Assembly: GCF_004010195.1 (NCBI RefSeq)
Contig: NC_057717.1
Span: 40,850,984 to 40,914,983 of the forward strand
Length of the DNA: 64,000 bases
Reading direction: 5' to 3'
DNA from: Chiloscyllium plagiosum
Taxonomy: Eukaryota
Below the pieces are notes generated by a model, which saw nothing but the letters and a program-made list of their open reading frames with translations, did no database searches and was not told where the DNA came from. Both the position numbers and the translations under genes were made by a program. Position 1 is the stretch's first letter, and each line of letters starts with the position of its first letter. Positions 16,191-63,692 of the stretch are shown here, one piece after another.

Positions 16191-16739
16191 GTATCCTGAC
16201 CGCTACCATCCGTATTCGAACGACGATAGGACACAGCGCGGGCCATAGATGCACATTGCGATCCCAAAAGGATTTCCTTCCTGCTCCATGATTTATTCAA
16301 ACTCCACTGTATATCCGTCAACAGGCCGTGGATTTAATTGGGACTTTTGTTTAAAGAATATCACCTCCTCTCTTTAAGGATTTATTTTTTGCAGCTGTCA
16401 CATTCTAGAAGGAAGTGATTGGAATTGGGCCGTGATAGGATGTTGCACACACCAGGTTTCTTCTCCAAACCCTCGACAAGCTCCTGCCTTCAATTCAGAG
16501 CCCAACTACCAAGACACATTTTATTCCTCGATCGCTCACTCATTCTAAAACACACTCTCACTCTTTGTCTACATCTTTTGTGTTTTGTAACTCCTTTGAC
16601 CAACAAACAATTATCTTCTGCTGTCAAATATTTCCATCCCCTCTGACTTCAAACTACCACGACTCGCATTGCTGTGTGTGGGACGGTTTTATTGTTTCGA
16701 AAACTAATAAAAGAAAACTGGACAGGGTTCAAAATAGGG

Positions 16740-16773
<34 letters not shown>

Positions 16774-17711
16774 CCCTTTAGACTCTCAGCGAATTGAAAT
16801 AGGCAAACTATGTTTAACTTATCCAATCATCATATTCAATTATCCTGGCCGATACATAGCTCACAAATCAAATGAAATTACAACAAATATTTTGAGAGAT
16901 TTCCTTATAAATATTGAAATGTCCTTCTCGGGGAGTCCTTTGTGTGAGACAGTCACTGGAGATTGATATATCTGTGTCAACTCCCAAGCCTGCATTGACA
17001 GGTGTCAAAACTCTTTTTAAAATGAATGGGCCACGATCATGCTGGAGTCTGTTAAGATAAGGACCCAAAACCCAAGATCCAACAGAGGAGATTAAATCTT
17101 GGAATACATAAACACACAACTCACATGGGCCCCCACGTGTTGCAGCCTCTTGACCAGGCCTCAAGCCTCAGAACATTTATCGCCTGTAAAGATTTTTCTT
17201 CTCCAAGGTTTTCCTCGTTCTTACCATTTTGGATGTTCACGTGGCAGCTTACCAAACAGAGGTTTGCTCCAGATAAAAGAGAGAAATAATTAGTTGAAAA
17301 GGAACCGAGAGCATTTTGACGGAAAATTACACAGTAAGATCATGAGTTTAAACTCACCCACCTAACCCATCAGCAATGCATTGCATGGCATCACAGAAAC
17401 ATTTACAGATAAACAAAACATAAGGGAACATTTAACCAGAGGCTTGAAATATCTTCAATCTCTTCGTATCGACAGAGGGAGAACAGAGGTCGAGATAAAG
17501 TTGACACTTTCTTCTTCAGATTTATTCTCAGTAAAGTATTGTTGACTCCACCTCTGCAATCTCAGACACTTCGTCATGTATGTGAGTCTGTTCCCTGTGG
17601 AGGCCTCTATGCTATTGTGATGATATTTCCCAGGACAGGAGATTTTTTGGATCCCGTTGGCCTTTGAGATGTCAATTCGCAAGACACGGATTTAAACAGG
17701 GATGGACAACG

Positions 17712-18200
17712 GTAAAGATCACACAACACCAGGTAATAGTTCAACAGATTTATTTGGAAGCACTAGCTTTCTGAGCGCCGCTCCTTCATCAGCTAACTCT
17801 TGATCAGGATTTGAAGACATTGAATTTATAACAAAAGGCTACAGTGTCATGCAACTGAAATGATATATTGAACAAACCTAGATCGCTGATAAGTCTTCCA
17901 TGTTTTAGTATAAGTCGCAGGTTTCGGTTCAATAGCAGCTAAATCCTAAAACTGATTTTAAGTAACATTCCTGAGACAACTCACTGTTATATAAAAAGGA
18001 TGACATATCAGCAAGGACAATACATTAAAGTTGTAATGTTAGTGTATGTGTGTCAACCAATTTGAGTCAGAATGGTTCTATTTCCCAAGTAAGAATTTAA
18101 AATATCTTATATGGATTGTCTGTCTGCATTGATTGCCTTTCGATTCCATGATTTTTCACACAAAATGAGATGTGTCTGCAAATATTATTCTGTACATGAA
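17712..18200 (-). mobile_element. Penelope-like repeat with hammerhead core (17761-17792)
   Basis: Minus strand CTGATGA-A-GGAGC ggc GCTCA-GAAA-GC-TA-GTG. Confidence 0.65.
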
Positions 18201-18529
18201 TATCCAACCAATAGGCTTAGATGTGTGCATGAGTGCACGAGAGAGAAGATGTGAGTGTGAGTCTGTGAGTGTGTGAGTATGAGTTACCTGAACTTGTGTG
18301 TGTTTGCATGTGTGCAAGCTTGGCACTGTTTGTGCGTGAGTATCACATTTTGTTAACTCGACTGCGAGAGTGTGCGTGGTGTGAGTGTTGCGGGTACATT
18401 GTGTGTCAGAAGAGAGACGGTGTGTATGACAGAGGTTACGCGTGAATGTGTGAATGCATGAGAGTATGTGTGCTTGTACGTGTGTGAGAGAGAGTATATC
18501 GTGTAGTCGTCTCAGGAATAAACAATGAA

Positions 18530-19510: not shown

Positions 19511-19959
19511 ACAGAATATATAACCATAATGTAGATAGGGTAACACTGTCATCAACGATGGATATCAATAATCCAGCGGACGTAATGTTTTGGATAGACA
19601 GACACAAAAGCAAAGCTAGTGTCATAACTATGCTTTATAGAAAGACAAAGACAGGGGTGACAACCTTCAAAATCTTAGCATGGAATCAGAATTAATGAAA
19701 GAGATAGTGAAAAGAGAACTGTTCGTAAACCTCCAAACCGTGGTTTTGGTGTTAGGGCAGTGTCGGAGAAGACAAAATGAAAATCCCTTTAAGAACTCAG
19801 CAGGTCTGACACTGTGTGTGGACGGACAAAGTTTGAGATCTTCAAAATTCAAATCTACTAGGGGAACCATATGTGCAACAGAACTTTATCAGACAAACCT
19901 GTCTTATGTTTTTTGTGTGTGCTTTTCAGAAAATTGCCGAGGGATACAAACTTTTATAG

Positions 19960-20272
19960 AATCTCTACAGTATGGAAATAGGCCAATTGACACAACAAGT
20001 CCAACACTGACAGTCCAAAGAGTAACCCCCCCAGCTATTTTCACATACCTAATCACTCGACATTGACCCATGACTAATGCCCATACCGTAAACATCGCTG
20101 AACACTCGGCAACTTCGCATGGCCATTCACCTAACCTGCATGTCATTGGTTCCGGAAGGAAACCGAAGTGCACAGATGAAACCAAACAGACACGAGGAGC
20201 GTACATAAATCTCACAGAGACAATCGCCTGAAGTTGAAAGCGAACCCAGTTTTCTGGCACTGTAAAACAGCA
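19960..20272 (-). mobile_element. HE1-like SINE
   Basis: aatctctacagtatgga...catggccattcacctaacctgca...gaacccagttttctggcactg. The paralogue at 14775-14900 is truncated. Confidence 0.7.
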
Positions 20273-20879: not shown

Positions 20880-22490
20880 AGGGATTTAGCTGCTTTTGGA
20901 GTCGTTAGAATCAGGGAGGGTCCCAGAGGACTGGAACATGGCAGCCATTTTCAAAAAAGGAGTGAGGCAAAAGACAGAAAACGTCAGACTGCTTCGCCTA
21001 ATGTATGACCTCGCTAAGATCCTTGGAATCCTTTGTAAAGGATGAAATTTCTGTATACTTGGATGTGTTACGATAAAATAAACAAAGTCTGCATGGTTTC
21101 GTCAAGGGGAAGTAATGCGTGACAAATCGAATACGGTTCTTTGAAAAATTAAGAAGCATGTTAGAACAAGGAGAGCCAATAGCTGTTATCTACCTGGACA
21201 TCAACATGGTCTTTGAAAGGTGTTGTATAGGAGGCTACTGAGTGAGATAAGAGCCCATGGTGTTAGAGACAAAGCACTGGCATTGTAGAATCTCAGCTAT
21301 CCGGCTCAAAGCAGAGAATGGAGATGAACGTGTCCTTATCAGGACGGCAGCCAGTGACAAGTGATGCTCTGCAAAGCTCAGTGTTGGCAAGATAGCTTAT
21401 CACTTTATACGTTAACCATCGAGATGAAGGAACTGAAAACATTCTGACTTGCAGAAGATACAAATCTAGGTTGGGGCACGGATAGCCTTGAGGAGGCGGG
21501 GAGGCCTTTAGGAGAGTGGGCAAAGAAGTGGAGTACAACGTTAGAAAGTGAGGTCCTGCATTTCGGTAGGAAGAATAGACACATGAAGAATGTTCTAAAT
21601 AGGGAGAAAGTTCCGAAGTCTGAAGTGTAAAAAAACATTGGGCGTTCCAGGTCTGAACTGACTCAAGTCAAACTTGCAGTTTGAATCAGTTGTTCGGAAG
21701 GCAAATGCAATTTTGCCATTTATTTTGTTAAGACTTGAATATAAAAAAAGAAACATGATCCCGAATGATGGGCTTTTGATCAAAATATTGATTGTCCTGC
21801 TTTTGAATGCTACCGGACCCTACTGTGCTTTTCCAGCACCACATCCTCGACTTTGATCTCTGCCATCTGCAATCCTCATTTTCTCCATTTAAAAGGAAGG
21901 TTGTACTTCAGAGGCTCTCTAAGGAAATTTTCAGACATTACTTGGAGTAATGTGCACAGATTTGAGAGCCATAATTCAGAAGGGAGTACTGGCCCTGGAA
22001 CATGTTCAGAGGGTGTTCACAAGAATAGCGCGAGGAATGAAAACCTTTACACATGTATAACACTTGAGGCCTATCGTTTTATACCACTTGGAGCTGAGAA
22101 ACATCGGATTTGGGTGACCAAATTGAAACATATCGAATACCAAATGACGTGTACAGAACAGAGGTTTGGGAAATGTTTCCAAAGGTAGGAGAGACAGCAA
22201 TGCGAGGACATAGCATTTGAGTAAAGGGTAGACATTTGGAGAGGAGGTAATGAAAAAGATGTTCAGTCAGAGAGTAGAGAATCTATGGATTTCGTTGCCA
22301 CAGAGGGCTGTAGAGGCTATGTCAATGAGTATGTTTAAGACTGAGATATATAGTTTATTCAGTATCAATGAGACCAAGGTTTAGGGGGACAACGCAGGAG
22401 AAGGGTCTTGAGAAACTTATCACGAATAATTGAATTAGTATTCAGGCTCGATGGGCTGAATGGCCAAATTTTGGGCTCCTATATGTAACA
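20880..22490 (+). mobile_element. Decayed CR1 LINE ORF2 3' half
   Basis: ccagaggactgg (PEDW), catggtttcgtcaaggg (HGF.KG), LEHVQRVFTR-like region and a 3' UTR gatgggctgaatggcc. Confidence 0.8.
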
Positions 22491-25260: not shown

Positions 25261-26189
25261 AATGCCCTCTCACAAAGATAAACGTCTGACATTCCTGATT
25301 GTCAATTGGTGTACAGCACCCATGAATGGGAGAATTGGGCCGGGGCATCAGGATATAGGAGATTGATGCACATTGCCAAGATAGTAAGAGCACTGGAGAA
25401 GATCACTATTAAGTGGTAGACAAAGTTCATGGGCATTAATAAACAGGACATTTGCTGCAACGGGTCAGTTAATGGGAAATTTGTTGCATGTCACCAACGA
25501 TTAGAGAATTGTTTCAGAGAAGCATTAAATGGAAGAATTGCTGCACCAGTAATTGAACTAATTATTGGAGTGCACAAGAAATGTGATGAATTCTTTCAGC
25601 AGGAGAATCATTGCAGGGAACTACGAAATGGAAACATTGGGCTATGGTATATCTAAAGGAAAGGATGTGAAGAAGGACATCAGATAATGTGAGAAATGGG
25701 ATAGGGCATCAGTCAATGGGAAAATTATGGCAGAATATCTGTACTGTAATTGTTTGAGTGGGTACATGGAATAATATCTCTCTGTACTCTCTCTTCCTTT
25801 CTCTCTCTGTCCCTCCCTCTCTCTCTGTCCATTCCTCACATTCTCTCTCTCTTTGACTGTCCCCTCTCTGTGAGTCTACATACAGAATCCCACAAGCAGC
25901 AATGTTAAAATGGGCACTCGTTGATAGGAGTTAAATCAAATCCTGACAATCGACTTGAGGCGGGTTGGGACGTGGTCAGACCTGGATGCTTCATCCTTTT
26001 GAAGTGATGAGCACCTCTATATCCCTCAACCACAACCTGAACATTTCGACGCCCACACCTCGCATCCAATACCCTAAGATATGAACGAGTCCAACTCCCT
26101 GTCAATCTGAACAATTCCCTCCTTTCACCCTCATAACCTTATACACAGACCCACAGGAGCCAGGAGGACGGAATGAGTTTTGGACTGTG

Positions 26190-28085
26190 GGATGTTGGAT
26201 GAGTTGGAATTCATCCTGCCTCACGAAGCTTACTGTGTTCCCTGACGATGTGACAAAACACATTAATAATTGTGGAGCAGTGGATGTGAGGTGCATGATT
26301 TCAGCAGGGAATTTGATGAGTGAGTTTTGCCGTGGTAGGCGCATACAAACAGTAAAGAATTATGGGATGCAGGGCAATTTCCTGTCTGGGGGCAGAATTG
26401 CCTGGTCCATAGCCGTCAGAGAGTGGTAGTGGAACCCAAGACGCGCGGCTTTCTGCAAGGCTTTGTTATGGGACCTGAGCTCTTTGTGATTTTTATGATT
26501 GATTTGGATGAGGAAGTGGAAGTTTGTGATAATCGGTTTGCCAATCAAACAAAGCTTAATAGTATTTTGGGTAGTGTTGCTGAAGGTTGCAATGCGATAT
26601 TGACAGGATGCAGAACTGGACTGTTAAGTGGAAGATGGATTTCAACCGGGGAAAGTTAAAAGTGAACCATCATTAAAAAATTGGAATTTGATTACAGAAT
26701 GCAGTTTTAAATGTTGGTTTCTTGACAGTGTGGAGGAACAGAGAGATCTTGGGGCCCACTTCCACAGATCCCTCAAAGGTGTCAACCAGGTTGATAGGGT
26801 TGAGCTGCAAGATTATGCTGCAGCTCTATAAATCCCTGGTGAGACCATGCTTGGAATATTGTGTTCAGTCCTGCTTACATCATTACAGAAAGAACGTGGA
26901 AGCTTTAGAGAGGATGCAGAGAGGATTTGCTGAGTGCGAACTGTACTGGAAGGCACATCTTCTTAAGAATTTTTATGGCATCTAAGGCTTTCCTCATTGG
27001 GTAGTAGATGGATTAGAGGTGACTTCATAGAGATGCATAGGTTGATGATAGACAGAGATAGAGTGGATAGCCAGACACTTTTCCCCAGGGCAGAAATGGC
27101 GATACCAAGCGGGCATAATTTTAAAGTAATTGGCGTAAGACTGGGGGAGATGCCAGAGGTAGGTTGTTTGGAGAGGGAACTTTAGGTACGTGAAATGCAA
27201 CGCCTTTGGTGGTGATCATGGAGTCATAGAGTCATGGAGATGTACAGCATGGAAACAGACACTTCGGTACAAACCATCCATCCTGACCATATATACCAAC
27301 CCAATCTAGTCCCACCTGCCATCACCCGGGCCATATCCCTCCAAGCCCTTCCTACACAGATAAGCATCCAAATGTCTTTGAAATGTTGCAATTGTATTAG
27401 CCTCCACCACTTCCTCTGGCAGCTCATTCCATACACGTACCACCCTCTGTGTGAAAAAGCTGCCCTTCTTTTATATCATTCCCCTCTCAAACTAAACCCT
27501 CTAGTTCGGGACTAACTGACCCCAGGGAAAATAGGTTGCATATTTACCCTATCCATGCCCCTCATAATTTTGTAAAACCCAGGTAAGGTCACTCCTCGGC
27601 CTCCAACACTCCAGGGAAAACAGCCCCAGCCTTTTCAGCCTCTTGCTATAGCTCAAACTCTCCAAACCTAGGAAAATCCCTATATATCTTTTCTCAATCC
27701 TTTCAAGTTTCACAACATTTTTCCGATAGGATGAAGACCAGAATTGCACGCAGTATTCCAACAGTGGCCGTAGCGAATGTCCTGTCCAACAGCAATATGA
27801 CCAATGAAGGAAAGTATACCAAGCGTCTTCTTCACGAACCTATCTACCTGCGGCTCCACTTGCAAGGAGTTATGAAGCTGCACTCCAAGGTCTGTTTGTT
27901 CAGCAACACTCCCTAAATCGAGACAGATACATCCGGGACATTTAAGCGACTGTTGTGTAGGCACATGGAAGATAGTAAAATGAAGGTTATGTAGATTAGT
28001 TAGATTTTAGATTAGGATAAAATGTCGGCAAAACATTAAAGACCGAGTGGATTGTACTTTGCTGTGCTGTTCTAAATTCTATGTA
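26190..28085 (+). mobile_element. CR1 LINE RT/3' fragment (paralogue of 14960-16190) split by a nested insertion
   Basis: LVRPCLEYCVQSC...LERMQR. Resumes at 27915 with tcgagacagatacat. Confidence 0.85.
27217..27914 (-). mobile_element. Nested CR1 3' fragment
   Basis: Minus strand EYCVQFWSSSYRKNVVKLERIEKR...LGLFSLE. Tail catggagtcatagagtcatggag. Absent from copy 1. Confidence 0.85.
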
Positions 28086-28719
28086 TGGAGATAACCACCG
28101 TCCGCATTCCAACGATGACAGGTCGTAGCGTGGACCATTGATGCACAGTGCGATTCCACAGGATAGTCCCTTCGTGCAGCATGATGTAATCAAACTCCAC
28201 TTTATATCCAACATGAGGCTTTGGTTTTAATTCGAATTTATTTGAAGAATATCACCTCGTCTCTTCAATGATCTGTTTTTGATGATGTAACTTTGTCAAA
28301 GGAAGTGATTGGAATTGGGCCGAGATCGGATATTTCACATCCCAGTTCTCTCCCCAGACCCTACACCAGCTCCTGTCTCCATTTCCCTGCCCAGCTACAA
28401 AGAACCATTTTCTACTTCGATCGCGCTGCATTCCAAAACACACTCTCTCTTTTTGTCTGCATCTTTTGTGTTTTTAACCAGATTCTCCAATAAACAGTAA
28501 GCTTCTGCTGTCAAATATGTTTATCACCACCCACTTCAAATAACCACGAGTGACATTGCAGTGTTTGAAATAGATTTAGTGGTTCAAAAACCAATGAAAG
28601 AGAGCTCGAGAGCATTCCAGAGAAGGGACAGAGAAAGATAGAGGAATGGAGGGAGATGAATAGGGGTGGGGGTAGGGGTGGGGGGTGGAGAGAGAGGGGG
28701 AGAGCGAAAGATAGAGATA

Positions 28720-30715
28720 GATTCGTGAACCGTGGATGACAGGAGAAATTGTATGACTATCCAAAAGGAAAAGGGAAACGTACATAAGGTCGAAGCAGCT
28801 AAGAAGAGAACGGGCCCTGTGAGAATATCGGAAGAATAAGACAAGTCTTAAAGGATGATTAAAGAGGGCTAAAAGGGGTCATGAAATAGCTTTAGCGAGC
28901 AAAATTAAGGAGAATCCCAAAGCATTTTATTTTTTATAAAAGAAGCAATAGGGTAACTAGAGAAAGGATTGGTGCATTAAAAAGATGACGAAGGAAGGCT
29001 GTGTGTGGAAGCTGAGAGAATGGGTGAGCTTCTGAATGATTACTTTGCATCAATGTTCACTGAGGAGAGGAATAGGATGAATGTTGAGATTAGAGATAGA
29101 AGTTTGATTAGTCTCGATCACGTTGACATAAGTAGGGAAGATGTGTTGGGTCGGCTAGAGGTGATGAAAGTGGACAAATCCCCAGGACTCGATGGGATGT
29201 ATCGCAGGTTGCTGAGGGAGGCGAGAGATGAGATAGCTGGGTCCCTGAAATATCTTTGTGGCATCCTTAAATGCAGGCTAGGTGCCGGAGGATTGGAGGG
29301 TTGCTCATGTTGTCTCCCTGTACACGAAGGGTGGTAGGGATATTCCGGGTAACTACAGACCAGTGAGCCTGGCGTCCATGGTGGGAACGTTTCTGGAGAA
29401 GATACTGAGGGATAGGATCTTTATCAGTGATAGGCAACATGGTTTTGTGCGGGGAAGATCATGCCTTACCAACTTAACAGAGTTCTTCGAGGAATTGAGA
29501 AAGTTGATAGATGAACAAAGGGCTGTTGATGTCATATACATGGACTTTAGTACGGCGTTTGATAAGGTTCCCCATGCGATAGACGAATGGAGAAATTGAA
29601 GTCATATTATATGCAGGGTGTTCCAGCTATGTAGATAAAGAAATGGTTGAGTAAGCGGAGACAGAGAGTCGTAGTTGAAGGGATCTTCTCGAAACGGAGA
29701 AAGGTGACCAGTGGTGTTCCACGGGTTACAAACAACACTGTTGTTTGTAATATGCATAAATGATCTGGAAGCGGGCACTGTTGGTATGATGAGGATGTTT
29801 GCAGATGACACGAAAATTGGTGGAGGAGCAGAAAGCATAAGAGATCGTCAAAGAACACGGGAGGGTATAGACAGACATCAGAGTTGGGTGGAAATGTGGC
29901 AGATGGTTTTCAATCCAGACAAATGAGAGGTGATGCATTTAGGCAAGACTAATTCTAGAGTGAACTACACAATGAACGGAAGAGCCTTGCGAAACGTTAA
30001 TGAGCAGAAAGATCTGTGAGTGCAGGTCCATTGTACCCTGAAGGGTGCTGCACAGGTGGATTGAGTGGTCAAGAAGGCATACAGTATGCTTGCCTTCATT
30101 GGACGTGATATTGAGTATAAGAGCTGGCAAGTCATGTTAACATTGTACACAACGTTGGTTCGGCCGCATTTTGAATACTGTGTACAGTTCTGGTCGCCAC
30201 ATTTCCAAAAGGATGTGGAGTCTTTGGAGAGTGTGCAGAGACAGTTTTCGAGAATGTTTTCTGGTATGGAATCTGCTAGCTATAAAGAAAGGTTCAGTAG
30301 GGTAGGTTTATTTTCATTAGGAAAAAGAGATTGAGGGAGAACATGATTGAGGTTTATAAAATCATGAAGGGTATAGACAGGGTGGATAGAGACAACCTTT
30401 TTCCCAGGGTGAAGGATTCAATTATGAGAGGTCACGCTTTCAAGGTGAGAGGTGGGAAGTTTAACGGGGATACACAAGGCAAGTACTTTACACATAGGAT
30501 GGTGGGCGTTTGGAACGCGTTTCCAGCAAAAGTGGTAGAGGCAGGCACGGTAGATTCATTTAACATGCATCTGGATAAGTGCATGTGTCGGTGGGGAGTA
30601 GAGGGGTACAGATGCTTAGGAATTGACAGACAGGTTTAGGAAGTACATTTGGATCAGCTCAGGCTTGGAGGGCTGAAGGGCAGTTCCAGGGCTGTAAATT
30701 TCTTTGTTCTTTGTT
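28720..30715 (+). mobile_element. CR1 LINE ORF2 3' portion (RT domain), 5'-truncated, comparatively well preserved
   Basis: KSPGLDG, PEDWRVAHV, PGNYRPVSL, QHGFVRGRSCLTNL, VDVIYMDFSTAFDKVPH, FADDTKI and LVRPHFEYCVQFWSP. Ends ttctttgttctttgttc. Confidence 0.95.
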
Positions 30716-31729
30716 CCTTGAGAAGGGAGATGGACAGAGAGAGCGAGAGAGAGAGAGAGAAAGAGAGAGACAGAGAGGTGCAAAGGACCCCCTCCAGACA
30801 TTCACGGAATTGAAATGGGTAACCTGTGTCTAACTTATCCAATCATCATGTTCCACCACCCTAGCTGATAAACAACTCACAAATTATATGAGATTAGAAC
30901 AAATCTTTGGAGAGTTTTATTATTAAAGGTTTGAATGCCCCCCTCGGCGACTCCTGTGGTAGGACACTCACTGGAGGTTGATGTATTTTGTCAAATCCCA
31001 AGTATCCCGTTGATTGGGGTCAAACCTAATATAAATGCGACCGGGCCACAATCAGTCAGGAGTCAGTTAAAGTAAGGCCCCGAAACGCAGAATCTCACAG
31101 AGGAGATTAAACCTTGGGATAAATAAACACACAACTCGCATGAGCTCACATGTGGTGCAGCGTGTTGACAAGGCCTCAAGGCTCAAGACCTTTCTCCCCC
31201 TCTGAAGATTGTTCTTGTCCAAGGCTTTCCTCGCTCATATCATTTTGGATGTTCCCGTTGCAGCTTCCCCTACACATGTTGCTCTGGATAAATTAGAGAA
31301 AAGAATAGTTGAAAAGGGGACCGAGAGCATGTTGAAGGAAAATTAGACAACGAAATAATGCATTTAAATTCACCCACCTCCCCATCAACAATGTCGTGTA
31401 TGACATCACAACAACATTGAAATATAATGAAAACATAAGAGATCACTTAACCAGAGGCTTGAAAAATGTTGAACCTCTAAATATAGACAGAGTTAGAACA
31501 GAGTTTGAGATAAACTTGACAGTTTCTTTTCCAGGTTTATTCTCAATGAAGCGTAATTGATTCCACCTCTGCAATCTCAGTCACTGCCTTTCAGTTTGAT
31601 CCCTTTTGAGACGTTTATGCTCGTGTGATGATATTTCTTGGGACAGGAGACTTTTTGGATTCTCCTGGTCATTGAGATGTTAATTCCCAAGATATTGTGT
31701 CGCCTGAGTTGAACTGGGGTGAACAATCT

Positions 31730-32180
31730 TAACATTACACAGCACCAGGTAATAGTTCAATAGGTTTGTTTGGAAGCACTAGCTTTCAGACCGCTGCTCC
31801 TTCATCAGCTAACATGTTGATCAGGATGATAAGACATCGCATTTGGAACAACAGATTACAGTGTCATACAACTGAAATGATATACTGAACAACCCCATGC
31901 TGCTGATATGTGTTCCATCTTTTCGAATAGGTTGCAGGTTTCAGTTCAATAATATCTAAATCCCCAAAATTATTTTAAGTCATACTTTCGAGAGAATACA
32001 TTAAAGGTGTAAGATTAGTGTCTGTGTGTCACTCAATCTTGAGACAGTATGGTTCTATTTCCAAATTAAGTATTCATAATATCTTACATTGATGGTCTGT
32101 CTGCATTGACTGCCTCTCTATTCGGTGTTTTTGACCAAAATGAGATGTGTCTGTACGCATTATTCTGCACATGGACGTTC
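31730..32180 (-). mobile_element. Penelope-like repeat with hammerhead core (31777-31808), paralogue of 17712-18200
   Basis: Minus strand CTGATGA-A-GGAGC agc GGTCT-GAAA-GC-TA-GTG. Confidence 0.65.
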
Positions 32181-32389
32181 AATCAAGAGAGTTCGATGTA
32201 TGCCTGTGAGTGGGGGAGTGTGAGTTACGTGTTTGTTTGCAGGTGTGCATGCTTGGCAGAGCATGTGCATGTGTATCACACTGTGTGAACCCGTTTGCGA
32301 GAGTGTACGTGGTGTATAATGTCACTGGATACTATGTCTTTGAGGGAGATCGTGTGTGTGTGAAAGAGAGTATATAGTGTAGAGGTCTC

Positions 32390-33180: not shown

Positions 33181-33984
33181 TGTATAATCAGAGGGTATAC
33201 AAATCACATTTTGACACTGAGCCACTTGCGGTAATGTTGGCCACACTGCACGAATTTTACACACAACGAGATCCCAAAGCAGAACTGTGATTGTAGACGG
33301 ATTGTGTATATCGCTGATGCTCGTTAATGGTTCAGTCCTGGCTGCAGGATGAAAACGAGTTGCCAATCCTGCTATCTGGCAAATTCAAAACACTTAACCT
33401 TTTCTCCTATATGCATCTCCCTCTATCTCCCTATCTCCATTTAAACTCTTTGTATCTTTCTCTGTCAGATTGAATTTAGCACATTTGAATCTTTATCACG
33501 CCTTTCTAAAATAATATGGCGTTGATAGTTGACAGTATTTTGCTTTATAAACTGGGATACTATTTTCCAGCAACGCATGTATCAGCAATACCGCAGGCCA
33601 TTGATGCATATTCAAATCCCCAATGTCGTCCCTTCCTGCTCCAAAATGTGAAGAAATCAAACATCGTGATTGGCCAAAAAGGCTGTGGGTTTCCTTGGAT
33701 TCCGATTTTTTCGAAAAGAAATCATCAGCTGCGTTCCAGGATTTCATTTTGGATAATGTACTTTTGAACTTAAGTTTAGTTATTGAAGCTGAGCTGCGAT
33801 TCGGTATTAGAGACTCCCAGTTTTCAATCCCAGCACTCCGCATATCCGAGCTCCCTTGATTAATCCACCTGAAAACACATATTTTATCGCTCGATTGCTC
33901 TCTCCATCCTACGCACACACACAATCTCTGTATCTGCATCTTTGCTTCTTTCAAAAAGCACATTGTGCTGCTTTCTATTTCTGT

Positions 33985-34410
33985 CACGTCGGTTGGAGGA
34001 AGAGCGCTTCATCTTCCGCCTAGGAACCCTCCAACCACAAGGGATGAACTCAGATTTCTCCAGTTTCCTCATTTCCCCTCCCCCACCTTGTCTCAGTCAA
34101 ATCCCTCGAACTCAGGACCGCATTCCTAACCTGCAATCTTCTTCCTGACCTCTCCGCCCCCACCCCACTCCGGCCTATCACCCTCACCTTGACCTCCTTC
34201 CACCTATCGCATTTCCAACGCCCCTCCCCAAATCCCTCCTCCCTACCTTTTATCTTAGCCTGCTGGACACACTTTCCTCATTCCTGAAGAAGGTCTTATG
34301 CCCGAAACGTCGATTCTCCTGTTCCTTGGATGCTACGTGACCTGCTGCGCTTTTCCAGCAACACATTTTCAGCTCTGATCTCCAGCATCTGCAGTTCTCA
34401 CTTTCTCCTC
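33985..34410 (+). mobile_element. Penelope-like element 3' end: GIY-YIG endonuclease C-terminus plus pLTR
   Basis: RRLEEERFIFRLGTLQPQGMNSDFSSF matches the PLE C-terminal E..(W/F)I..L.TL.P.G(L/M)N motif. A hammerhead core follows. Confidence 0.85.
34282..34313 (+). ncRNA. Minimal type I hammerhead ribozyme motif
   Basis: TC-CTGAAGA-A-GGTC TTAT GCCC-GAAA-C-GTC-GA. Core nucleotides intact, ACGT palindrome in place of stem III, predicted cleavage after C34311. Confidence 0.7.
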
Positions 34411-36649
34411 TATGTCTGTCTCCCCAAACTATAGTAATTTCCGGTCACATTGTTGTGTGTGGGACGTTATTATTGGCTTGAAATCATGAGAAAATGTAGC
34501 TGGAGATCATTCAGGAGCAGAGGTGGGGAGAAAGAAACAGAAAGAATTCCTCCAAGGTACTCATGGAAAAGAATGAAAATGGCGAACCTGATTCTTATTG
34601 TTACAACTGTCAAATTGTATCACACTGGTCTTCGCACATCACTCATTACTCTGACGTGTGAACGAGTCCATACAGAACCTTTCTCTTTTCAAAGTTCACC
34701 TTCCTTCTTGTGGCGTCTTGTTGGTCCGACAGTCACTGGGACGACGTTGACATGTTGGTGTCAAATCCATGGGCACTGGTTACTTTAATCTCAGCATTCA
34801 AACCTGTTTTATAAATGACAGGGCTGCAACCCAGCAGGATTAAGTAAACCAAAGGCCCCTAAAAACCATTGTGTCCCAGAGGACATCAAACCTCCGGTAA
34901 TAAACAGACACAAACTTCATAGATTGCAGTTTGTAGAACAGGCCTCAGGCCTGACAATCATGTCGCCTCTCCAGAAAGCTCTTTTTCTAACGTTCCCTGT
35001 GGCCTAAACTCACCCTTTTTACCTTTCTAAATGGTCGCTTGGGAAAAAAAAACAGATAGCACTCGGTTGAAAGGCAAAGCCTGAAAAGTCTGTGGACTGA
35101 TAGCACAGCAGGGTGCCATGTTTTCCTCGTTGTTACACAGACAATCTCTTCGCAGCATGCAACCACAATCATATCGGGCGATGAGTTGAGAATTCATACC
35201 AAACCCGGTGGAAAACTTTAAAGTCACGCCTTTGCAGTCACTGCCTGCTCCGATGATTTTGGTGCAACTGTTACAATGCTGCATTCCACATGCAGCAATG
35301 GATCAGCAGCCATATCACCGGATTGCATTTACTTCCCTCTGTGATGCTGGTTAATTTTAAGTATGTCTTGTGTCACTGGAATTTGACAACACACGATTCG
35401 CAATCTCAAAACTCCCTCACTCATCTCTTTCCTCTCCTCTCTCACTTATTCAAATATTTGTCTCACTATCAGATTTCAATATTTGGCATAATCCGTAACA
35501 CATATTAAGACTCGGGTGCGGAAATCAATACAACTCACTTGAGTCCTGCGCGTGGTGTGACCTGTCGAACGGGCAGAAGGTGAAAGTCGCCACTCCCCAC
35601 CCAATCCCGCCCACGGGCATTGTTCGTTTTCAAGGATTTTACAGCCCCAGAAACTTTGGATATTCATTTTTCAACTTTCCAAATAAAAGTTCTTCAGGAC
35701 AAAGGACATAAGATTATTTAAAAAGGGGTGTGAGAGTATTTTGCTGCAGAAATACACACCGAGGTCGCAGGCTTAAAAGGATGCACCCGTCACTATTCAA
35801 GTGACCACATATCAACAGAGAAATATAGATCAAATCATAAACATGCAAAATCAGGATGTTTGAAATATTGATGAGCACTGGAATCTCAGCACAATCATGC
35901 TCACACACAGACATACAACACACCCACACACAAACACACAAAAACAAATACACAAACACATACACACCCTTTCATAGGAGAGGCAGAATAGAGATTGAGA
36001 ATGAATCTGAAAGTTTCCTGCCAGATTAAATCTCATTGAGCGGTTTGCCGACACTGTTTCTGACATATTGCATTATATCTTAAGGCTACTGTATGATTCA
36101 GATGTTAGTTTTCGTGATATAAGGTATGTTGAATCTTTCTGGCCATTGTGAGATGTTAATTTTCGATGAGCAAATCTTGACCATTCTTACATTTTGAAAA
36201 ATCGTTTTGAATGCTTTTTTTTTCATTTCTGTCAGTGCTGTTGAAGCAGATTTGGCATTGGTCGCAGACGAGCATCTATATCTCTGACGGTATACACACC
36301 CTGATAGACAGCGCTGGCAAGGTAATGGGGATATTTGTCGAGTATCTTTCAGGATGTCAGTGTGCTTCCCAGAATCGATATCTCTCTCTTCTCTCCCTGT
36401 TTCTGCCTCTCTGTCCTGCATTAGATGCAGCTTTTCGTAGCCCACTCTTCAAAGCATGATTTCGTTTCCCCTTCTCTAATATATCAGTAGTGTCTGAAAA
36501 ATTGGATGCCATCAGGCGAGCACATTTCTCTTTGGACCGTCCTAATTCACCTCCAGGACAGAGCTGTGGAGAACATGTAGGCAATTTATGTAGTTTTTTT
36601 CGAGGCACAAATCAGTGATGTTCTGAGTTCAAACATTGAGCTGCAGTGT

Positions 36650-44389: not shown

Positions 44390-44838
44390 CATGGACTGCA
44401 GGTGATGTAAACCAGAGTCTAGGTTGGACTGGTGGTGGAAAAGCGCAGCAGGTCAGGCAGCATCCGAGGAGCAGGAAAATCGAGTTTCGGGCAAAAGCCC
44501 TTCATCATGAATAGAGGCAGGGTGCCTGCAGAGTGGAGAGATAAATGAAAGTGGGTGGGGGTGGGGAGTAAGTGGCATAGAATAAAAGCTTCATGGCAGA
44601 GGAGATGACCTGGGGGTTGCAGTGAGCGAGGCACCCATTGAGATTCTTGTAGAGAGAGGAGGAAAACTTCTTCAAGGAGGCATCCTTGCAAGAGGATTCG
44701 CAGTAGGGTTAAAATCAACTAGGTAAAAACAAGGACTGCAGATGCTGGAAACCAGGTCTAGATTAGAGTGATCCTGGAAAAGCACAGCAGGCCAGGCAGC
44801 ATCCATGAAGCAGGAAAATCGACGTTTCAGGCAAAAGG
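44390..44838 (-). mobile_element. Penelope-like element with tandem pseudo-LTR copies (44393-44510 and 44733-44838)
   Basis: ~105-bp direct repeat ggactgcag...ggaaaagc.cagcagg.caggcagcatcc...gcaggaaaatcga.gtttc.ggcaaaag. Same family as 34270-34410 and 63571-63690. Confidence 0.8.
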
Positions 44839-45644: not shown

Positions 45645-45775
45645 TAAAAAACGTGATTATAGTCCAACAGGTTTACTTGGAAGCACTAGATTGCGGAGGG
45701 CTGCTGTTTCATCAATTAGCTGTGGAAAGGATGCATAAAAGCTGTTGGACTATAATCTGGTGTTGTGTGACTTTC
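45645..45775. mobile_element. Penelope-like pLTR-derived insert with a 16-bp perfect inverted repeat
   Basis: gattatagtccaacag (45655-45670) and ctgttggactataatc (45742-45757), with a decayed hammerhead remnant between. Confidence 0.65.
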
Positions 45776-46289
45776 CAAATATTCTGGAAATAGTGAACAG
45801 ACTTAATTTTCTCACATTCACCACGTTGCTCACGCAAACCTTCTTTCTGTGTCAATCCACAAGCCCCATTATTTGTAATTCAAGTATCCTCTCAGTCCTG
45901 GAGCACTGTATCATATTTTGCAAGATTACGATTCAGAAAAAAAATGTGCATAATGTCGCGAAGATGTTTACTCAGAAAATTTCATGATTAGAATTTGTAG
46001 GCTTTTGGTTGGTCAATTGATTTCTTTTCTCTCCGCAACATTAAAGTAAAAGCCCGTGCGATAACAGTATTTGTGACAGAATGAAAAATTATTATATAAA
46101 TTATCATATGAATATAGATAATCTTGTTGATTAATGTGTAGAATATGATTTCTAAAAGAATAGATTGCTTCATGCATTATGCAATGAATGGTTACGATTT
46201 GTGATTAACTGGTGCGAGATAGGTGGACACAGGTTTTTCAATATACTGTAAAATTGTAATGAGAAGATGATTAAAAGACAAAGTTTCAC

Positions 46290-49200
46290 ACACACCCCGT
46301 GAACTCCATAGTAAACTCCATCACTGTCATGCCCTCTGCCCCATATTCTGTCACACCAACACAATTAGCAGCCCACATTTCCCCGACCTACGCACTCACT
46401 CCGTTGTACTTTCCCTAACCATTAATGTCAGTTGTTGCACACTCATCCACCGTCATGCTCTCTCACAGACACTCCCAAAGCAATAGTTACTTCCCCTTGC
46501 TTTCATATACAGTCAGGCATACTCCCCCGGACACTCCCCCATCATCCATCTCGCTCCCACGCACGCTGCAACACCGTCAGTGTCATTACACTACACACTC
46601 TCAAAACCATCATGCACACTCCCAACACGATCCCCCAAAATAATCTCTGCTCCCCTGTGCACTCTCCCACCTTCATATTCAAGCGCTGTACGCTCCTCCA
46701 CATCATCACACAGATTCCCTTCACACTCCCATATGTCGCCCTCCACTCCCCCACACAATCCCTGTCGGTCGCAATCACTCTCCAGCACGCTCCCACGCCG
46801 TTACAGTCACTGCTCCGCACACGACACCAGCGTCACTCCCAATTCCCGCACGCTGACCCACCATAATGCTGAATACCCTGCACACTCCGACAGAGCAACC
46901 ATCACCACTTGCCAGTTACCTATCTTCAATTTTATTCAACTGCACGCACACCCATCGTCACACTCAGTACCCCAAACATTCCCCCACTGTAAAGTTCACT
47001 CCTTTGCATACTCCCACAAAATCACACTCACTGCCCCTCACAATCATTAATCATCACGCTCAGTCAACGGCACAGGTACTCATCATTATGTTCACTCTCC
47101 GTACACTGCATCACTATTGAGGACCATCCCCCATTTACTACCAAATCCTCTTGCACAATGCATCCAATTTTGCCCCACTGTCATGCTCACTCTCTGCTGT
47201 GTCATTCATTACCACGCTCACCTCCCCAACATTACTCTCAGTCTGCCGCACATGCCTCACCCTCACTCTAACTCTCCACACACTCCTCCNNNNNNNNNNN
47301 NNNNNNNNNNNNNNNNNNNNNNNNNNNNNNNNNNNNNNNNNNNNNNNNNNNNNNNNNNNNNNNNNNNNNNNNNNNNNNNNNNNNNNNNNNNNNNNNNNNN
47401 NNNNNNNNNNNNNNNNNNNNNNNNNNNNNNNNNNNNNNNNNNNNNNNNNNNNNNNNNNNNNNNNNNNNNNNNNNNNNNNNNNNNNNNNNNNNNNNNNNNN
47501 NNNNNNNNNNNNNNNNNNNNNNNNNNNNNNNNNNNNNNNNNNNNNNNNNNNNNNNNNNNNNNNNNNNNNNNNNNNNNNNNNNNNNNNNNNNNNNNNNNNN
47601 NNNNNNNNNNNNNNNNNNNNNNNNNNNNNNNNNNNNNNNNNNNNNNNNNNNNNNNNNNNNNNNNNNNNNNNNNNNNNNNNNNNNNNNNNNNNNNNNNNNN
47701 NNNNNNNNNNNNNNNNNNNNNNNNNNNNNNNNNNNNNNNNNNNNNNNNNNNNNNNNNNNNNNNNNNNNNNNNNNNNNNNNNNNNNNNNNNNNNNNNNNNN
47801 NNNNNNNNNNNNNNNNNNNNNNNNNNNNNNNNNNNNNNNNNNNNNNNNNNNNNNNNNNNNNNNNNNNNNNNNNNNNNNNNNNNNNNNNNNNNNNNNNNNN
47901 NNNNNNNNNNNNNNNNNNNNNNNNNNNNNNNNNNNNNNNNNNNNNNNNNNNNNNNNNNNNNNNNNNNNNNNNNNNNNNNNNNNNNNNNNNNNNNNNNNNN
48001 NNNNNNNNNNNNNNNNNNNNNNNNNNNNNNNNNNNNNNNNNNNNNNNNNNNNNNNNNNNNNNNNNNNNNNNNNNNNNNNNNNNNNNNNNNNNNNNNNNNN
48101 NNNNNNNNNNNNNNNNNNNNNNNNNNNNNNNNNNNNNNNNNNNNNNNNNNNNNNNNNNNNTCATACACTCCTGCACACTCGACCAACGTCATCTCACTTC
48201 CTTGCACACTCCCCTAGCATCATGCTCACTCCCATGTGCACTCCTATTCCATCCCGCTCACCCTCTCACGCGATTCCCCACCATAGCACTCAATCAACCG
48301 CTCACTCTTGTAGTGGCACATTTTCTGCTCTGCAAACTCACCCCACTGTCACGCTGACTCCCTCACACTCCACCACCATCCTGCACATTTTGCCGCACAC
48401 TTCCCCAATTTCACGGTCATTCCCTCACATTCTATCCCACACATTCCCCAGATACTTCTCCCAGCGTCACACTCATTGTCCCTCACACGCCAATAACACC
48501 CCGTGTGCTCGGCAGCACAATCTACCGCTGTCACTCTCATTCCCTCATACACGCCCCGGAAACTCCAACACCGTCACTGCCTCACACACATCCGACACAC
48601 ACCGTGCATCCACTAACAAACACATCCCCAACTTCATTTGCTTTCCGGGACACCCTCATCCAACGTCACGTTCACTCCTGTTCCCACTCCCACACAATCA
48701 CGCTAAGTCATTGGCACACTCCCAAACTGTAAAACTCAAACTCCTGCTCGCGCCACAACCATCACGTACACACTCCGTTCAATTGTCACCAACATTCACA
48801 ATGCCACCTGCACACACCAACAATCATGCTGATTCCCTGCACACTTCTCTACTGTCAAACTTACTGCCCCGTTAGCTCCCTCACATCTATACCTACTCCC
48901 CGATTCACTCTACACCAAATTCGCACAAGCCTGCTTACCTTCCCACATTACACACATCTCCCAAATTTACCCACACCATCCTGTTCACTCCCTCGCATTG
49001 AAGAGAACTATCACGCTCAATCCCCTGTACTCTCCTGCCGAATTCTGCACTCAAGCCTGCTCCCTCCGCAACTGTCATGCTCACTCTGCTGAACAATCCT
49101 GCACGGGCATGCTGACTCGGGGCTCACTCCACACCATCATTGCCAAGGTCCCAATCACTTACCCAGTGTTACACTCACTACCCAAAGTCACTCACAAAAT

Positions 49201-52200
49201 TGCACTCAATACCCAACATACTCCCCACATTACCGGGCTCACTCACATGCACTCAATCGCACGCACTTCTCAAATGTACCGATTACTCGCACGCTCACTG
49301 TCGCAACCTGAAACTCACCCCCCCAAACACATCCCACATTGTTACGCTCACTCTCCCTCACACTCCACCACTGTCACACTTCGTGTGCTGTGCACTCCTC
49401 CACTGTCACCTTCACTCCCTTACATACTGCTCTGCACATTCCCCCATCGTCAGTGTCACTGTCTCTCACAACCCCCTCACGCAGCCTCTTAGATTTCCCC
49501 ACTACCCTGCAGACTCCCCCGCCCACTTTCCAACTGCTAACATCACTCAAATGCATACTCCTTCGTCAAATCATTCACTTACCGCACACTCCAACACCGT
49601 CACACTTACTCCACTGCACATGCCCCCACCAGCATTTTCACATCCTGGACACTCCCACACCTTCACTCTCACTCATCAACACAATCGCCCACCATCATAC
49701 TCCCTCTGCTGCACACTCACTCACCATCCCTCACACTCTTCCACACACTCTCCCACAGTCCCCGTAACTCTCTCACACAATCCTGGACCATCGCACTCAC
49801 GCTCCCACATGCGTTCACTCTCCCAAACACTTGCCCCCTGTAATTGTCATTCCCTCACATTCTGTCCCAAGAACATGCTCTCTGCCCCGCACACTTCCCT
49901 GACCGTGACTTTCAACTGCCAATCACAACACAGAATCCTCCCCCACTTTCACGCTCACTCGCCCGCATACAACCCTGCTCACTCTCCCACAATCATGCTC
50001 ACTGCGCCGAACACTCCACTGCCAACCCACTTCCTCTTCTGCACACTCAGCAATTTTCAAACACTTTCCCTCCTAAAGAGCGCAGCACCATGCGAACACA
50101 TACGCACAATCCAACACCATCCTGATCATTCTCCCGCACTCTCCCCGACCATCACGCTCACTCACTCGCACACCCCATCACCATCACATTTACTATCCTG
50201 GACACTCACTCCATTGCCACGCTCCGTCCTGCTCACAACTCACCACGATTCCGCCGACTCTGCCATGCATTCCAGCAGCGTCACTCTGCTTCCCTCACAG
50301 GTTCATCCGCACATTCCCTTCGTCTCCCGCACTCCGACACAAACTCTCCCGTGCATTCCCTAACAGGCTCCCCCAATATAATGTTCTCCTCCCACACACT
50401 GTCACATCAACACACTCTCTCATCCACACAAAACCCCACCGCATGCTCACTTCCCCATACATTCAGAAGTTTTAATATCGACCGAGGCACACTCTCCCAC
50501 TATCACAATAATGCCGCTTGCACAAGCCCACACCATCATTGCCGTCACACGCATACTCCAATAGTGTCTCACTCAATACCCCGTACACACAAAAACCATC
50601 ACATTTACTCTCCCGCACGTTATTCCACCGTCAAACTCTCTCCACCATACATTCTGACACCGCCCAGTTCACTTCCCTGCACACTCGCACACCATCACGC
50701 TCACTCATCCACATAAACCCCACGGTCACGCTCACTTGCATAGACACACCCCCATGATCACACACACTCCCCTACTCTCTCCATCACCCATGCAAACTGC
50801 GCTGGTCACTCATCCACAATCACACACACTCGTCTGCCTACTCACCCACAATTACACACACTCCACAAAGAGGCCTTGATGCCAGGTTCAGTTCCCTGCT
50901 CACTTACACTTGATAGTGCACACTCCTAACTCAGGAGCTGCCGATTTCACGCACACATCCCTACATTCCCGCTCACTCCACCTCTGCCCTCTCTGCCCAC
51001 ATCCCGCTCACTGTCCCGCACACCCTCCCAAAATTATGCTGTCACTGCCAGGTACTCCCATACCGTCGTGCTCATGTTCCCACACACCTGCCTACCATCC
51101 AGCTCAGTGCCCTGCACACCTTGCCTCAGTTATGCACAGTCACGAACACACTCAACAAATTTATTTTCATTGCCCCTCATAATCACCAGTATTGTTTTCT
51201 ATACTCTGTGCACAACCGCGCAATAACTCCCATCGTCACGCCCACTCTCCCAGACGCTTCCACATTGACACGAAATCCACTGCACACTCCCTCCCACACA
51301 CCCATAGAATCAAACAATTTTTTTTTCAGTATTCTCACTGGGAAAATAAGACGGTCGTGGAATACCGGCTATTAGACCAAATGAGATTGAGGTTAACAAG
51401 GAGTATGTATTAGCAATTCGTGAAAGAGTGAAAGTCCATACGTCACCTGGGCCAAATGGGATTTACGTCGGATTCTCTAGGAACAGAGGCAGAGGATTGT
51501 GGAACCTTTGGCTTTATTCTTTGTGTCGTCATTGTCTTCAGGAATAATGACAGAAGACTGGAGAAAAGCAAATGTTGATCCTTGTTTGAGAGAGTCGGAG
51601 CAACCCTGGTAATTGTAGACCAGTGGACCTTACTTCGGTTCTGTGTAATGTGTCGGAAAATGTTACAAGAGATTGGATTTACATAATCGAGGAAGGAATA
51701 AGAATGATTAGTGATCATCAACACTGTTTCGTCAAGGGTATTTCATGGCTCACAAACATTATTCAGATCTATGAGAAAGCGACTAAACAGGTGGATGAGT
51801 GTAAAGTGATTGCTGTGATGCATATGGATTTCAGTGAGGCGTTTGATAAGGTTTCCACGGTAGGCTGTTGCATAAAATTCCAAGTTAACGGATTGAGAAT
51901 GACTCAGCGGTTAAAATCAGAAATTGGTTAGCTGACAGAGTATAGAGTGTGGTGGTTGATGAGAAATGCTTTTCATGGCGTTTGAATACGAGTCGTATGC
52001 CGCAAGGCTCTGTTTTGTGATGTCTGCTGTTTGTCCTTTGAAACATGTGGGCAGAGAAGGATGAGTGAGTAAAATTGCGAATGACACTGCCTTCGTCAGA
52101 GTTGTGGATAGTGCTGAAAGATGTTATAAGTAATAGACGGACATAAATAAACTGCTGAGGTGGGCTGAGAAGTGGTAAATGGAGGTTAATTCCGAAAAGT

Positions 52201-55200: not shown

Positions 55201-55335
55201 TCACAAGTCCCGTCCGTCACCCTCACTCCACCGAACACAACCTCAACCAGATGCTCACTTCCCCACACACTCCCATACCATCAAACGCACTCCCCTGTAC
55301 ACTCCTCTACCATCATGTTCACTCCCCCACACTGT
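46290..55335. repeat. Large degenerate ~35-bp C/A-rich satellite, interrupted by gap 47290-48160 and a CR1 insertion
   Basis: Recurrent unit approximately cactcactcccctgcacactcccccaccatcatgct. Strong depletion of G on the + strand. Confidence 0.85.
51305..52915 (+). mobile_element. CR1 LINE ORF2 3' half inserted in the satellite
   Basis: QHCFVKGISWLTNI and AVMHMDFSEAFDKV, WAEKW*MEVN, and a CR1 3' UTR. Confidence 0.9.
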
Positions 55336-55338
55336 ACT

Positions 55339-55344
55339 TTTATT
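55339..55344 (-). terminator. Candidate poly(A) signal of the GPCR gene
   Basis: TTTATT on + (AATAAA on -), about 210 nt past the stop and directly before GT-rich satellite sequence. Confidence 0.5.
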
Positions 55345-63550: not shown

Positions 63551-63570
63551 CGAATTATGCTTGATGGAGG

Positions 63571-63692
63571 AAGTGAGGACTGCAGATGCTGGAGATCAGA
63601 GTCGAAGACAGTGGTGCTGGAAAAGCATAGCAGGTTGGGCACCATCCAACGAACAGGAGAACCGACGTTTTTGGCATACTCTCTTCAGGATT
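63571..63692 (-). mobile_element. Penelope-like pLTR fragment with a broken hammerhead
   Basis: aagtgaggactgcagatgctggagatcaga...; minus strand CTGAAGA-gagtatgcc-AAAA-ACGTC (GAAA lost). Confidence 0.7.

What the first reader, a model, noticed from the sequence alone, without database searches (positions are those of the whole stretch)
34282..34313. Near-intact minimal hammerhead ribozyme in a Penelope-like 3' end
Seen: directly after a GIY-YIG C-terminal motif, CTGAAGA-A-GGTC/TTAT/GCCC-GAAA-C-GTC. It has every catalytic-core base, a GUC cleavage triplet, the ACGT palindrome, one stem II mismatch and only a short stem I. Established: Penelope pLTRs carry minimal type I hammerheads acting as dimers, and an extra base after A9 is tolerated in natural hammerheads. 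Inference: with about eight related motifs from two families in 64 kb, this genome holds a very large and probably poorly annotated ribozyme-retroelement system that could cleave host or read-through transcripts. This is the best candidate for the hidden system in the window, although PLE hammerheads as a class are known.
Basis: partly seen in the sequence, partly recalled or inferred. Interest (0 to 1): 0.7.

Follow-up and report, generated by a model that had tools for sequence, protein, structure and literature searches.

The report
Decayed Penelope hammerhead; family likely cuts
This is a real but mutated, likely inactive copy of a known kind of tiny self-cutting RNA motif carried by a Penelope-type jumping gene with over 87,000 intact copies in this shark-type genome, and U6 RNA copies joined exactly at the predicted cut in sister copies show indirectly that the family likely does cut in living cells.

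Summary
The motif is there as described (C3 = 34284, C17 = 34311). It is the minimal, dimer-type hammerhead of a solo, 5'-truncated Penelope-like element (33986-34408, 12-bp target duplication). The class is published. This copy is not a good candidate: its stem II change is a rare decay variant (113 copies against 87,506 exact intact motifs), costs about 7 kcal/mol, and it has no same-strand partner or overlapping gene that I found. Copies decay neutrally (catalytic G12 lost in 22 of 91); the core is conserved only between master lineages. Host-transcript cutting is untested. The family is the interesting part. Short copies begin at the ribozyme's first base with an excess G, so the motif likely opens a capped transcript that is mostly copied uncut. 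Yet all 8 U6-to-element junctions found (7 loci, sister subfamilies) fall exactly at the cut bond, none at the much commoner start site: indirect evidence of in vivo cleavage. The scan noted both features before on other DNA of this genome; I re-tested them here and they held. I found neither in print.

The parts
33974..33985 (+). Left target-site duplication (12 bp, one mismatch to the right copy)
   Evidence: Sequence; no empty site was seen in DNA contigs, so the TSD is read from the flanks only
33986..34408 (+). 5'-truncated Penelope-like element copy (3' end of ORF plus pLTR and tail), 93-97% identical to its 39 best relatives
33990..34129 (+). Remnant of the GIY-YIG endonuclease C-terminus, frameshifted near 34079; family stop codon at 34127-34129
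   Evidence: relatives with RVT_1 and GIY-YIG; indel near 34079
34248..34255 (+). TATA-like box 25-32 nt before the inferred start (inferred promoter element)
   Evidence: Sequence; similar TTTAT-box in long copies of several subfamilies
34280..34283 (+). Inferred transcription start (A34280) and 5' arm of stem I
   Evidence: 5' ends pile at 34276-34286; G excess at -1
34284..34311 (+). Minimal hammerhead core: CUGAAGA, extra A, stem II with one mismatch at 34294, GAAA, ACGU palindrome, C17
34312..34315 (+). 3' arm of stem I; G34312 is the first base after the predicted cut, the position where U6 is joined in sister copies
34375..34408 (+). Optional ~35-nt PLE 'tail' between the two preferred 3' ends
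   Evidence: Two clusters of 3' ends, 34367-34379 and 34403-34409 (the query ended at 34409)
34409..34420 (+). Right target-site duplication
   Evidence: Sequence
63566..63690 (-). Decayed family-A pLTR end with broken hammerhead
44430..44512 (-). Decayed family-A pLTR end with broken hammerhead; a second partial copy lies at 44732-44837 on the same strand
21759..21886 (+). Decayed family-A pLTR end; nearest same-strand relative, 12.5 kb away
17691..17800 (-). Family-B hammerhead-bearing repeat end; relatives at 31709-31813 (-), 9874-9949 (-), 45659-45714 (-)

Best explanation
This is a mutated, likely inactive minimal hammerhead at the 3' end of a dead, 5'-truncated Penelope-like retroelement copy, from a family whose ribozyme likely forms the first 32 bases of a capped transcript and likely cuts only some of those transcripts. 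Shown: element identity, boundaries, tail, copy number, neutral decay of copies, covariation between families. Inferred mechanism: (1) the pLTR promoter starts RNA at A34280, the first base of stem I; (2) the monomer has no stem III and is predicted to be off, so two copies would pair through the ACGU palindrome, perhaps with help of the element's protein as published for the anole element; (3) reverse transcription starts about 95 or 130 nt downstream at the tail and mostly copies uncut RNA, giving long copies such as this one (which runs across the cut bond) and many 100-130-bp stubs ending at the cap with an extra G; (4) a minority of RNAs is cut after C17, losing the cap and leaving a 5'-OH at G1.1 that an RtcB-type ligase would join to a cyclic-phosphate end, normally the element's own (linear or circular re-joining) and occasionally U6; (5) once inserted, copies lose the ribozyme by neutral mutation, chiefly at three CpGs; this one lost stem II.
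For: Relatives encode RT plus C-terminal GIY-YIG with a C-x4-C-xx-C linker (GIY-YIG scores 20.6-21.5 bits, just under the 22.6 cut-off). 87,506 exact intact motifs vs 113 with the window's exact variant; 628 of 649 RNA reads at 34294 carry the family base. Stem II hairpin -7.9 kcal/mol in natural relative L006 vs -1.1 here; target double hammerhead -9.5 vs +4.9. No core position carries a subfamily allele, while N7, loop 2 and several flank positions do; three families show compensatory changes in stems I, II and the stem III palindrome (ACGU/AGCU). 5' ends: 52 of 139 at 34276-34286, 6 of 139 at 34310-34315. G 5,010 vs A 2,335 at -1; expected G share 0.41, observed 0.68. U6 junctions: 8 of 9 pattern hits carry U6 sequence and all 8 join at G1.1 out of 30 allowed positions (7 loci, 7 different downstream sequences); the pattern covering 34270-34300 gave 2 hits, neither U6. 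L381 runs from G1.1 through the tail into an ORF start at +136 and has a second join at G1.1. U6 ligation needs a 5'-OH acceptor (PMC6789731).
Against: No cleavage assay. No U6 junction was found in the window's exact subfamily; the closest (L386) is a sister type. Only 5 of the 8 U6 pieces pass Rfam; 3 are 25-35-nt 3' ends matched by alignment. No clear TSD was found around the U6 chimeras. Ordinary 5' ends show no clear peak at the cut: 746 hits vs 254 upstream and 795 downstream, confounded by fold-back microhomology. The double hammerhead is not the minimum-energy dimer even for L006 (-9.5 vs -24.1). RNA reads showed no pile of ends. The start site and cap are inferred from DNA only. No complete pLTR-ORF-pLTR copy was recovered.
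Confidence: 0.75

Rival explanations
1. The family's motif is kept as a promoter, protein-binding or folding element and rarely or never cuts; U6 joins at G1.1 arise from a host nuclease or a reverse-transcriptase pause and template switch at that position.
For: Most copies come from uncut RNA. For the anole element, catalytic mutants did not affect insertion in vitro and no RNA reads ended at the cut (PMC11167929). Minimal hammerheads cut poorly in vitro (PMC4209133). The motif overlaps the inferred start site.
Against: 8 of 8 junctions at the one bond predicted beforehand, without microhomology to the template base before it, and none at the far commoner 5' end at 34280; all catalytic bases fixed and stems covarying across three families.
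Confidence: 0.15
2. One reading: dispersed copies, this one included, act as a genome-wide system that cleaves host or read-through transcripts, in cis or as trans dimers.
For: 41 of 91 sampled copies keep core, palindrome and four stem II pairs; family sequences are present in RNA reads on both strands; concentration of motifs is high.
Against: This copy's stem II is predicted not to form; no overlapping gene found; 0 of 105 copies have a close same-strand partner and 46 of 105 have an inverted partner that would bury the motif in a hairpin; copies show no selection on the core.
Confidence: 0.07
3. Long copies such as this one were copied from a circular, cut-and-religated monomer, so running across the cut bond reflects ligation rather than an uncut template.
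For: Proposed in PMC4209133. Ligation at G1.1 is implied by the U6 chimeras and by ORF pieces joined to G1.1 in L381 and L256. This is compatible with step 4 of the best explanation.
Against: A religated junction is identical to an uncut one, so DNA cannot show it; stubs ending at 34280 with extra G need a linear capped template. No unit-length tandem was recovered here.
Confidence: 0.25

Closest known systems
Minimal hammerheads (min-HHR) in pLTRs of metazoan PLEs (Cervera and De la Pena 2014, PMC4209133; parts 1-2 of 4 read, 2 of its supplementary files searched, file 1 not searchable)
   Same: Type I core, extra base between 9 and 10.1, G10.1-C11.1, palindromic 15.2/16.2 without helix III, mostly solo truncated copies, opposite-strand pairs 100-700 bp apart.
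   Different: Stem II is 4 bp; stem I only 3 pairs plus U.U. Count here (87,506 exact) is about ten times the 9,000 given for Xenopus tropicalis and twenty times the 4,000 for coelacanth. No shark term found in the two supplements searched. That paper states there was no in vivo evidence.
PAc, Poseidon element of Anolis (Frangieh et al. 2024, PMC11167929; parts 1-2 of 4 read)
   Same: Internal start of reverse transcription at two sites bounding the tail; uncut RNA as the main template; protein-assisted cleavage.
   Different: In PAc the ORF starts inside the hammerhead; here an ORF start lies about 136 nt after the cut (L381). They saw no RNA ends at the cut; the U6 junctions here are a DNA record at that bond.
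Neptune/Nematis clades of EN+ PLEs (Craig et al. 2021, bioRxiv 10.1101/2021.04.23.441226; passages read)
   Same: RT, C-terminal GIY-YIG, CX2-5CxxC linker, pLTR, inverted 5' copy, 30-40-bp tail.
   Different: Clade not tested by a tree; assignment rests on the linker motif.
U6/LINE-1 chimeras formed by RtcB ligation (Moldovan et al. 2019, PMC6789731; abstract, introduction opening and part 1 of 2 of the Discussion read)
   Same: U6 3' end with its U tract joined to a 5'-truncated retroelement.
   Different: L1 junctions are variable and the nuclease is unknown; here the junction is fixed at a ribozyme cut site.
Non-LTR retrozymes (PMC7229834, passages; bioRxiv 10.64898/2026.07.22.740005, part 1 of 5 and passages)
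   Same: Type I hammerheads related to PLE pLTRs; reported in one chondrichthyan.
   Different: Those are tandem non-coding repeats; this copy is solo and carries ORF sequence.

Membership tests
PLE minimal hammerhead | All conserved core bases (C3 U4 G5 A6 G8 A9 G12 A13 A14 A15.1 U16.1 H17) | tested here: met
PLE minimal hammerhead | Extra base between 9 and 10.1, G10.1-C11.1 pair, palindromic 15.2/16.2 in place of helix III | tested here: met
   A34291, G34292-C34303, ACGT 34307-34310; covariation with families B and C
PLE minimal hammerhead | Stable stem II (this copy) | tested here: not met
   -1.1 kcal/mol with a different pairing vs -7.9 in L006; met by the family (41 of 91 fully intact)
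PLE minimal hammerhead | Located in the pLTR of a PLE | tested here: met
PLE minimal hammerhead | Self-cleavage as a dimer | not testable with these tools
   Indirect only: U6 junctions at the cut in sister subfamilies; dimer fold feasible but not minimum energy
EN+ Penelope-like element | Single ORF with RT and C-terminal GIY-YIG | tested here: met
   In relatives L070, L072, L077 (GIY-YIG just below curated cut-off); only the last ~45 codons remain in the window
EN+ Penelope-like element | 5' truncation, optional 30-40-bp tail, inverted partner copies, short TSD | tested here: met
Neptune/Nematis clade | CX2-5CxxC linker between RT and EN | tested here: met
   CNRRRCNTC in P0001 and P0002 (definition)
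Neptune/Nematis clade | RT phylogeny | not tested
   No reference set at hand
Non-LTR retrozyme | Tandem non-coding units each with a hammerhead | tested here: not met
   Solo copy with ORF remnant; 0 of 105 sampled copies with a same-strand motif within 600 bp
Rfam hammerhead families | Covariance model match | tested here: not met
   No hammerhead hit at E <= 5 in the window

The most novel reading that the evidence does not exclude
In this genome the minimal hammerhead is the first 32 bases of the capped Penelope transcript and does cut in the germ line, acting as a decap-and-ligate switch: the cut leaves a 5'-OH that a host RtcB-type ligase joins to cyclic-phosphate ends, as recorded by U6 and element fragments fused exactly at G1.1. 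That would be in vivo evidence for a ribozyme class whose activity in animals was stated to be unshown.
Probability: 0.65. Interest if true: 0.75.

Novelty: new member of a known kind. Interest (0 to 1): 0.52.

Why it matters
The copy itself is ordinary. The family makes an open question testable: whether the weak minimal hammerheads of animal PLEs cut in vivo and what for. It gives exact predictions (cap at A34280, cyclic phosphate at C34311, 5'-OH at G34312, ligation products) in a genome with at least 87,506 intact motifs, about 25 per Mb. It also bears on how PLEs form stubs, inverted ends and possibly circles.

Tried and rejected
Rfam scan of the window: no hammerhead. Loose core pattern: not above chance. 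Pfam on the window's own ORF remnant: nothing. Three rounds of walking to a complete pLTR-ORF-pLTR copy failed; architecture was pieced from L381 and L079, which are 76% alike over 362 bp. Copy-level selection on the core: rejected (core non-CpG 3.4% vs non-diagnostic flank 5.3% divergence; G12 24% vs all CpG 19.6%). Peak of ordinary 5' ends at the cut: inconclusive; true unique-flank ends were 4 of 20 at the cut, 3 of 30 upstream and 1 of 30 downstream after I removed by eye 2 and 1 loci that keep part of the ribozyme. RNA: no holder on record as RNA was listed; run X20 (2% read, another species label than could be tied to this genome, poly(A) single-cell) gave 2,165 family reads on both strands and no end pile-up; X21 gave 0 reads, no test. 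Empty site in DNA contigs: not seen. A first strict U6 pattern gave 1 hit; a T-run pattern gave 1 U6 in 30 loci read of 54. The Lunse et al. 2016 paper on PLE hammerhead dimers is not held; I saw only its citation and a review's summary, so it may already list shark motifs. An intron in the pLTR was considered; no GT-AG joint was among those listed. Annotation status and intron strand bias could not be tested. Not-in-print searches; none listed a paper on U6-PLE junctions or on a PLE start at the hammerhead, but only listings were seen for most, and bioRxiv supplements are closed.

Full report
Observation. The quoted sequence is at 34282-34313. In hammerhead numbering C3 is 34284, an extra A follows A9, stem II is 34292-34303 with a T.C mismatch at 34294/34301, G12-A15.1 is 34304-34307, A15.1-U16.1 form the palindrome ACGT and C17 is 34311. 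Stem I has three pairs and a U.U. Rfam does not see it, and the loose core pattern is not enriched in the window (11 vs 7.8), but the intact form has 43,730 + 43,776 = 87,506 exact matches in the 3.56-Gb genome with 0 for the reversed control. The window holds 5 family-A and 4 family-B motifs with at least part of a core; by my reading none is fully intact.

What the copy is. It lies in a 423-bp insertion, 33986-34408, flanked by a 12-bp duplication with one mismatch. Its 39 best relatives are 93-97% identical, and most of the 29 read extend further 5'. [quoted passage not shown] (passages). The window keeps only the endonuclease's end, frameshifted; the motif is about 235 nt further on. 3' ends fall in two clusters about 35 nt apart, the PLE tail. 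L381 shows what follows the tail in a longer template: an ORF start 136 nt after the cut position, 76% alike to the 5' part of L079, a long member of the window's subfamily. Host context: an IgM secretory last exon at 950-1357 and a membrane exon near 4.2 kb (+), a GPCR at 55552-56490 (-); the secretory IgM exon and repeat content point to a cartilaginous fish (inference). I found no gene over the copy, having scanned 30 of the 96 ORFs against Pfam.

This copy is likely dead. The window's exact variant occurs 113 times; 1 of 91 unbiased copies has T at 34294. The change lifts the stem II hairpin from -7.9 to -1.1 kcal/mol and the target double hammerhead from -9.5 to +4.9 (comparison with natural copy L006). 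The nearest same-strand relative is decayed and 12.5 kb away.

Selection. I fetched 50 stretches of 20 kb at round coordinates (1 Mb, 42,616 N). They hold 105 family-A motifs. Among 91 spanning 34282-34345, non-CpG core positions diverge 3.4%, non-diagnostic flanks 5.3%, and G12, in a CpG, 24% (all CpG 19.6%); 41 of 91 keep core, palindrome and four stem II pairs. So inserted copies decay roughly neutrally. Subfamily alleles occur at N7, loop 2 and flanks but at no core base, and a descriptor (47 hits, controls 0) finds at least three families whose stems I and II and stem III palindrome differ by compensatory changes. Selection therefore acts on master elements. Of 105 copies, 46 have an inverted partner within 600 bp, 0 a same-strand motif within 600 bp and 31 within 4 kb.

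Where copies begin. Prompted by earlier scan notes, I mapped 5' ends: 43 of 139 extend beyond 34235, 52 end at 34276-34286 and 6 at 34310-34315. Genome-wide, the base before A34280 in one subfamily pattern is G 5,010 times and A 2,335 times, against an expected G share of 0.41; T and C were not counted. A TATA-like box lies 25-32 nt upstream. I infer a capped transcript starting at stem I, with the G a copy of the cap; that cap copying adds a 5' G in retrocopies is recalled, not from a call. TATA and Inr-like motifs in pLTRs are noted for rotifer elements (PMC3846280, passages); Drosophila Penelope has a TATA-less internal promoter (PMC2377424, passages). Copying of uncut RNA from internal start sites matches PAc in vitro (PMC11167929).

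Does the family cut? Ordinary 5' ends are inconclusive: 746 pattern hits start at the cut, 254 two bases upstream, 795 two bases downstream; most are fold-back junctions with microhomology, and unique-flank ends were 4 of 20, 3 of 30 and 1 of 30 after manual removal of 3 control loci. U6 chimeras, a lead from notes e1-8159350 and e1-8160647, are more telling. A pattern allowing a U6-like end to join anywhere from about 34300 to 34329 gave 9 hits; 8 carry U6 sequence (5 pass Rfam, 3 are 25-35-nt ends) and all 8 join at G1.1; they are 7 loci with 7 different downstream sequences, one locus having two arms. The pattern for about 34270-34300, which includes the main pile of 5' ends, gave 2 hits, neither U6. 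Under a uniform model 7 of 7 at one of 30 places has probability 5e-11; the model is crude. Of the 30 best U6 copies read (of 126 candidates), 3 loci were family-A chimeras, all at G1.1. U6 ends in a cyclic phosphate and RtcB joins it only to a 5'-OH (PMC6789731), which a hammerhead cut makes and a cap does not. L381 has a second join at G1.1 behind an ORF fragment, and L256 one too. Limits: none of the chimeras is from the window's exact subfamily, exact-match patterns miss decayed cases, no clear TSDs were found, and template switching onto a cut end would look the same (it would still need the cut).

Host cleavage. Family sequence is in poly(A) reads on both strands, with 93% of reads running on into unlike sequence, as expected of passive read-through; no end pile-up was listed, but that library cannot be expected to show cut ends. 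There is no evidence here for cleavage of host RNA.

Comparison and verdict. Minimal hammerheads in PLE pLTRs, with these same features, are published (PMC4209133); counts there are 4,000-9,000 for the richest vertebrates, and axolotl has up to 120,000 retrozyme copies (PMC7229834, passages). Lunse et al. 2016 could not be read. PMC4350176 and PMC6155905 (passages) added nothing specific. My searches listed no paper on U6 joined at PLE ribozyme cuts. The scan itself has noted these features before on other DNA of this genome; those notes are not independent support. Verdict: real, a decayed new member of a known kind; first reading partly supported; interest 0.52, carried by the family-level record of cleavage rather than by this copy.

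Noticed in passing
window 950-1357 (+) and about 4120-4260 (+): Last secretory exon of an IgM heavy chain with tailpiece (best PDB matches are IgM constant regions) and a membrane exon about 2.8 kb further on.
   Followed up: partly
window 55552-56490 (-): Single-frame 312-aa rhodopsin-family GPCR (7tm_1, E 1e-16).
   Followed up: no
L381 (G000:C1:38726740-38729779, - strand): U6 3' end, then element RNA from the cut site through tail and ~400 nt of ORF, then a second join exactly at the cut site: a possible ligated concatemer or small circle.
   Followed up: partly
L388/L389 (G000:C31 near 9507336-9507643): Head-to-head insertion with a U6-to-cut-site junction on both arms.
   Followed up: partly
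L154 near 2787 and L214 pair near 16315 (sample coordinates): A third hammerhead family with U as extra base, a long stem II loop and a GUU triplet.
   Followed up: no
L357, L363, L367, L369, L370, L374, L376-L380: Many U6 copies are joined at their 3' end to the start of a tRNA-like or SINE-like repeat; L358 and L366 to PLE ORF sequence.
   Followed up: no
L127-L139 (G000:C15 near 4.03 Mb); also C10 near 5.888 Mb and C1 near 58.55 Mb: 72-bp tandem arrays derived from the proline-rich part of the element's ORF.
   Followed up: no
window 46000-56000: Strong C-over-G skew with several long frames that gave no Pfam match.
   Followed up: no
window 14373-18382, 19531-20082, 26145-32315: Two long diverged repeats (73-77% alike) that each carry a family-B hammerhead near one end.
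   Followed up: no
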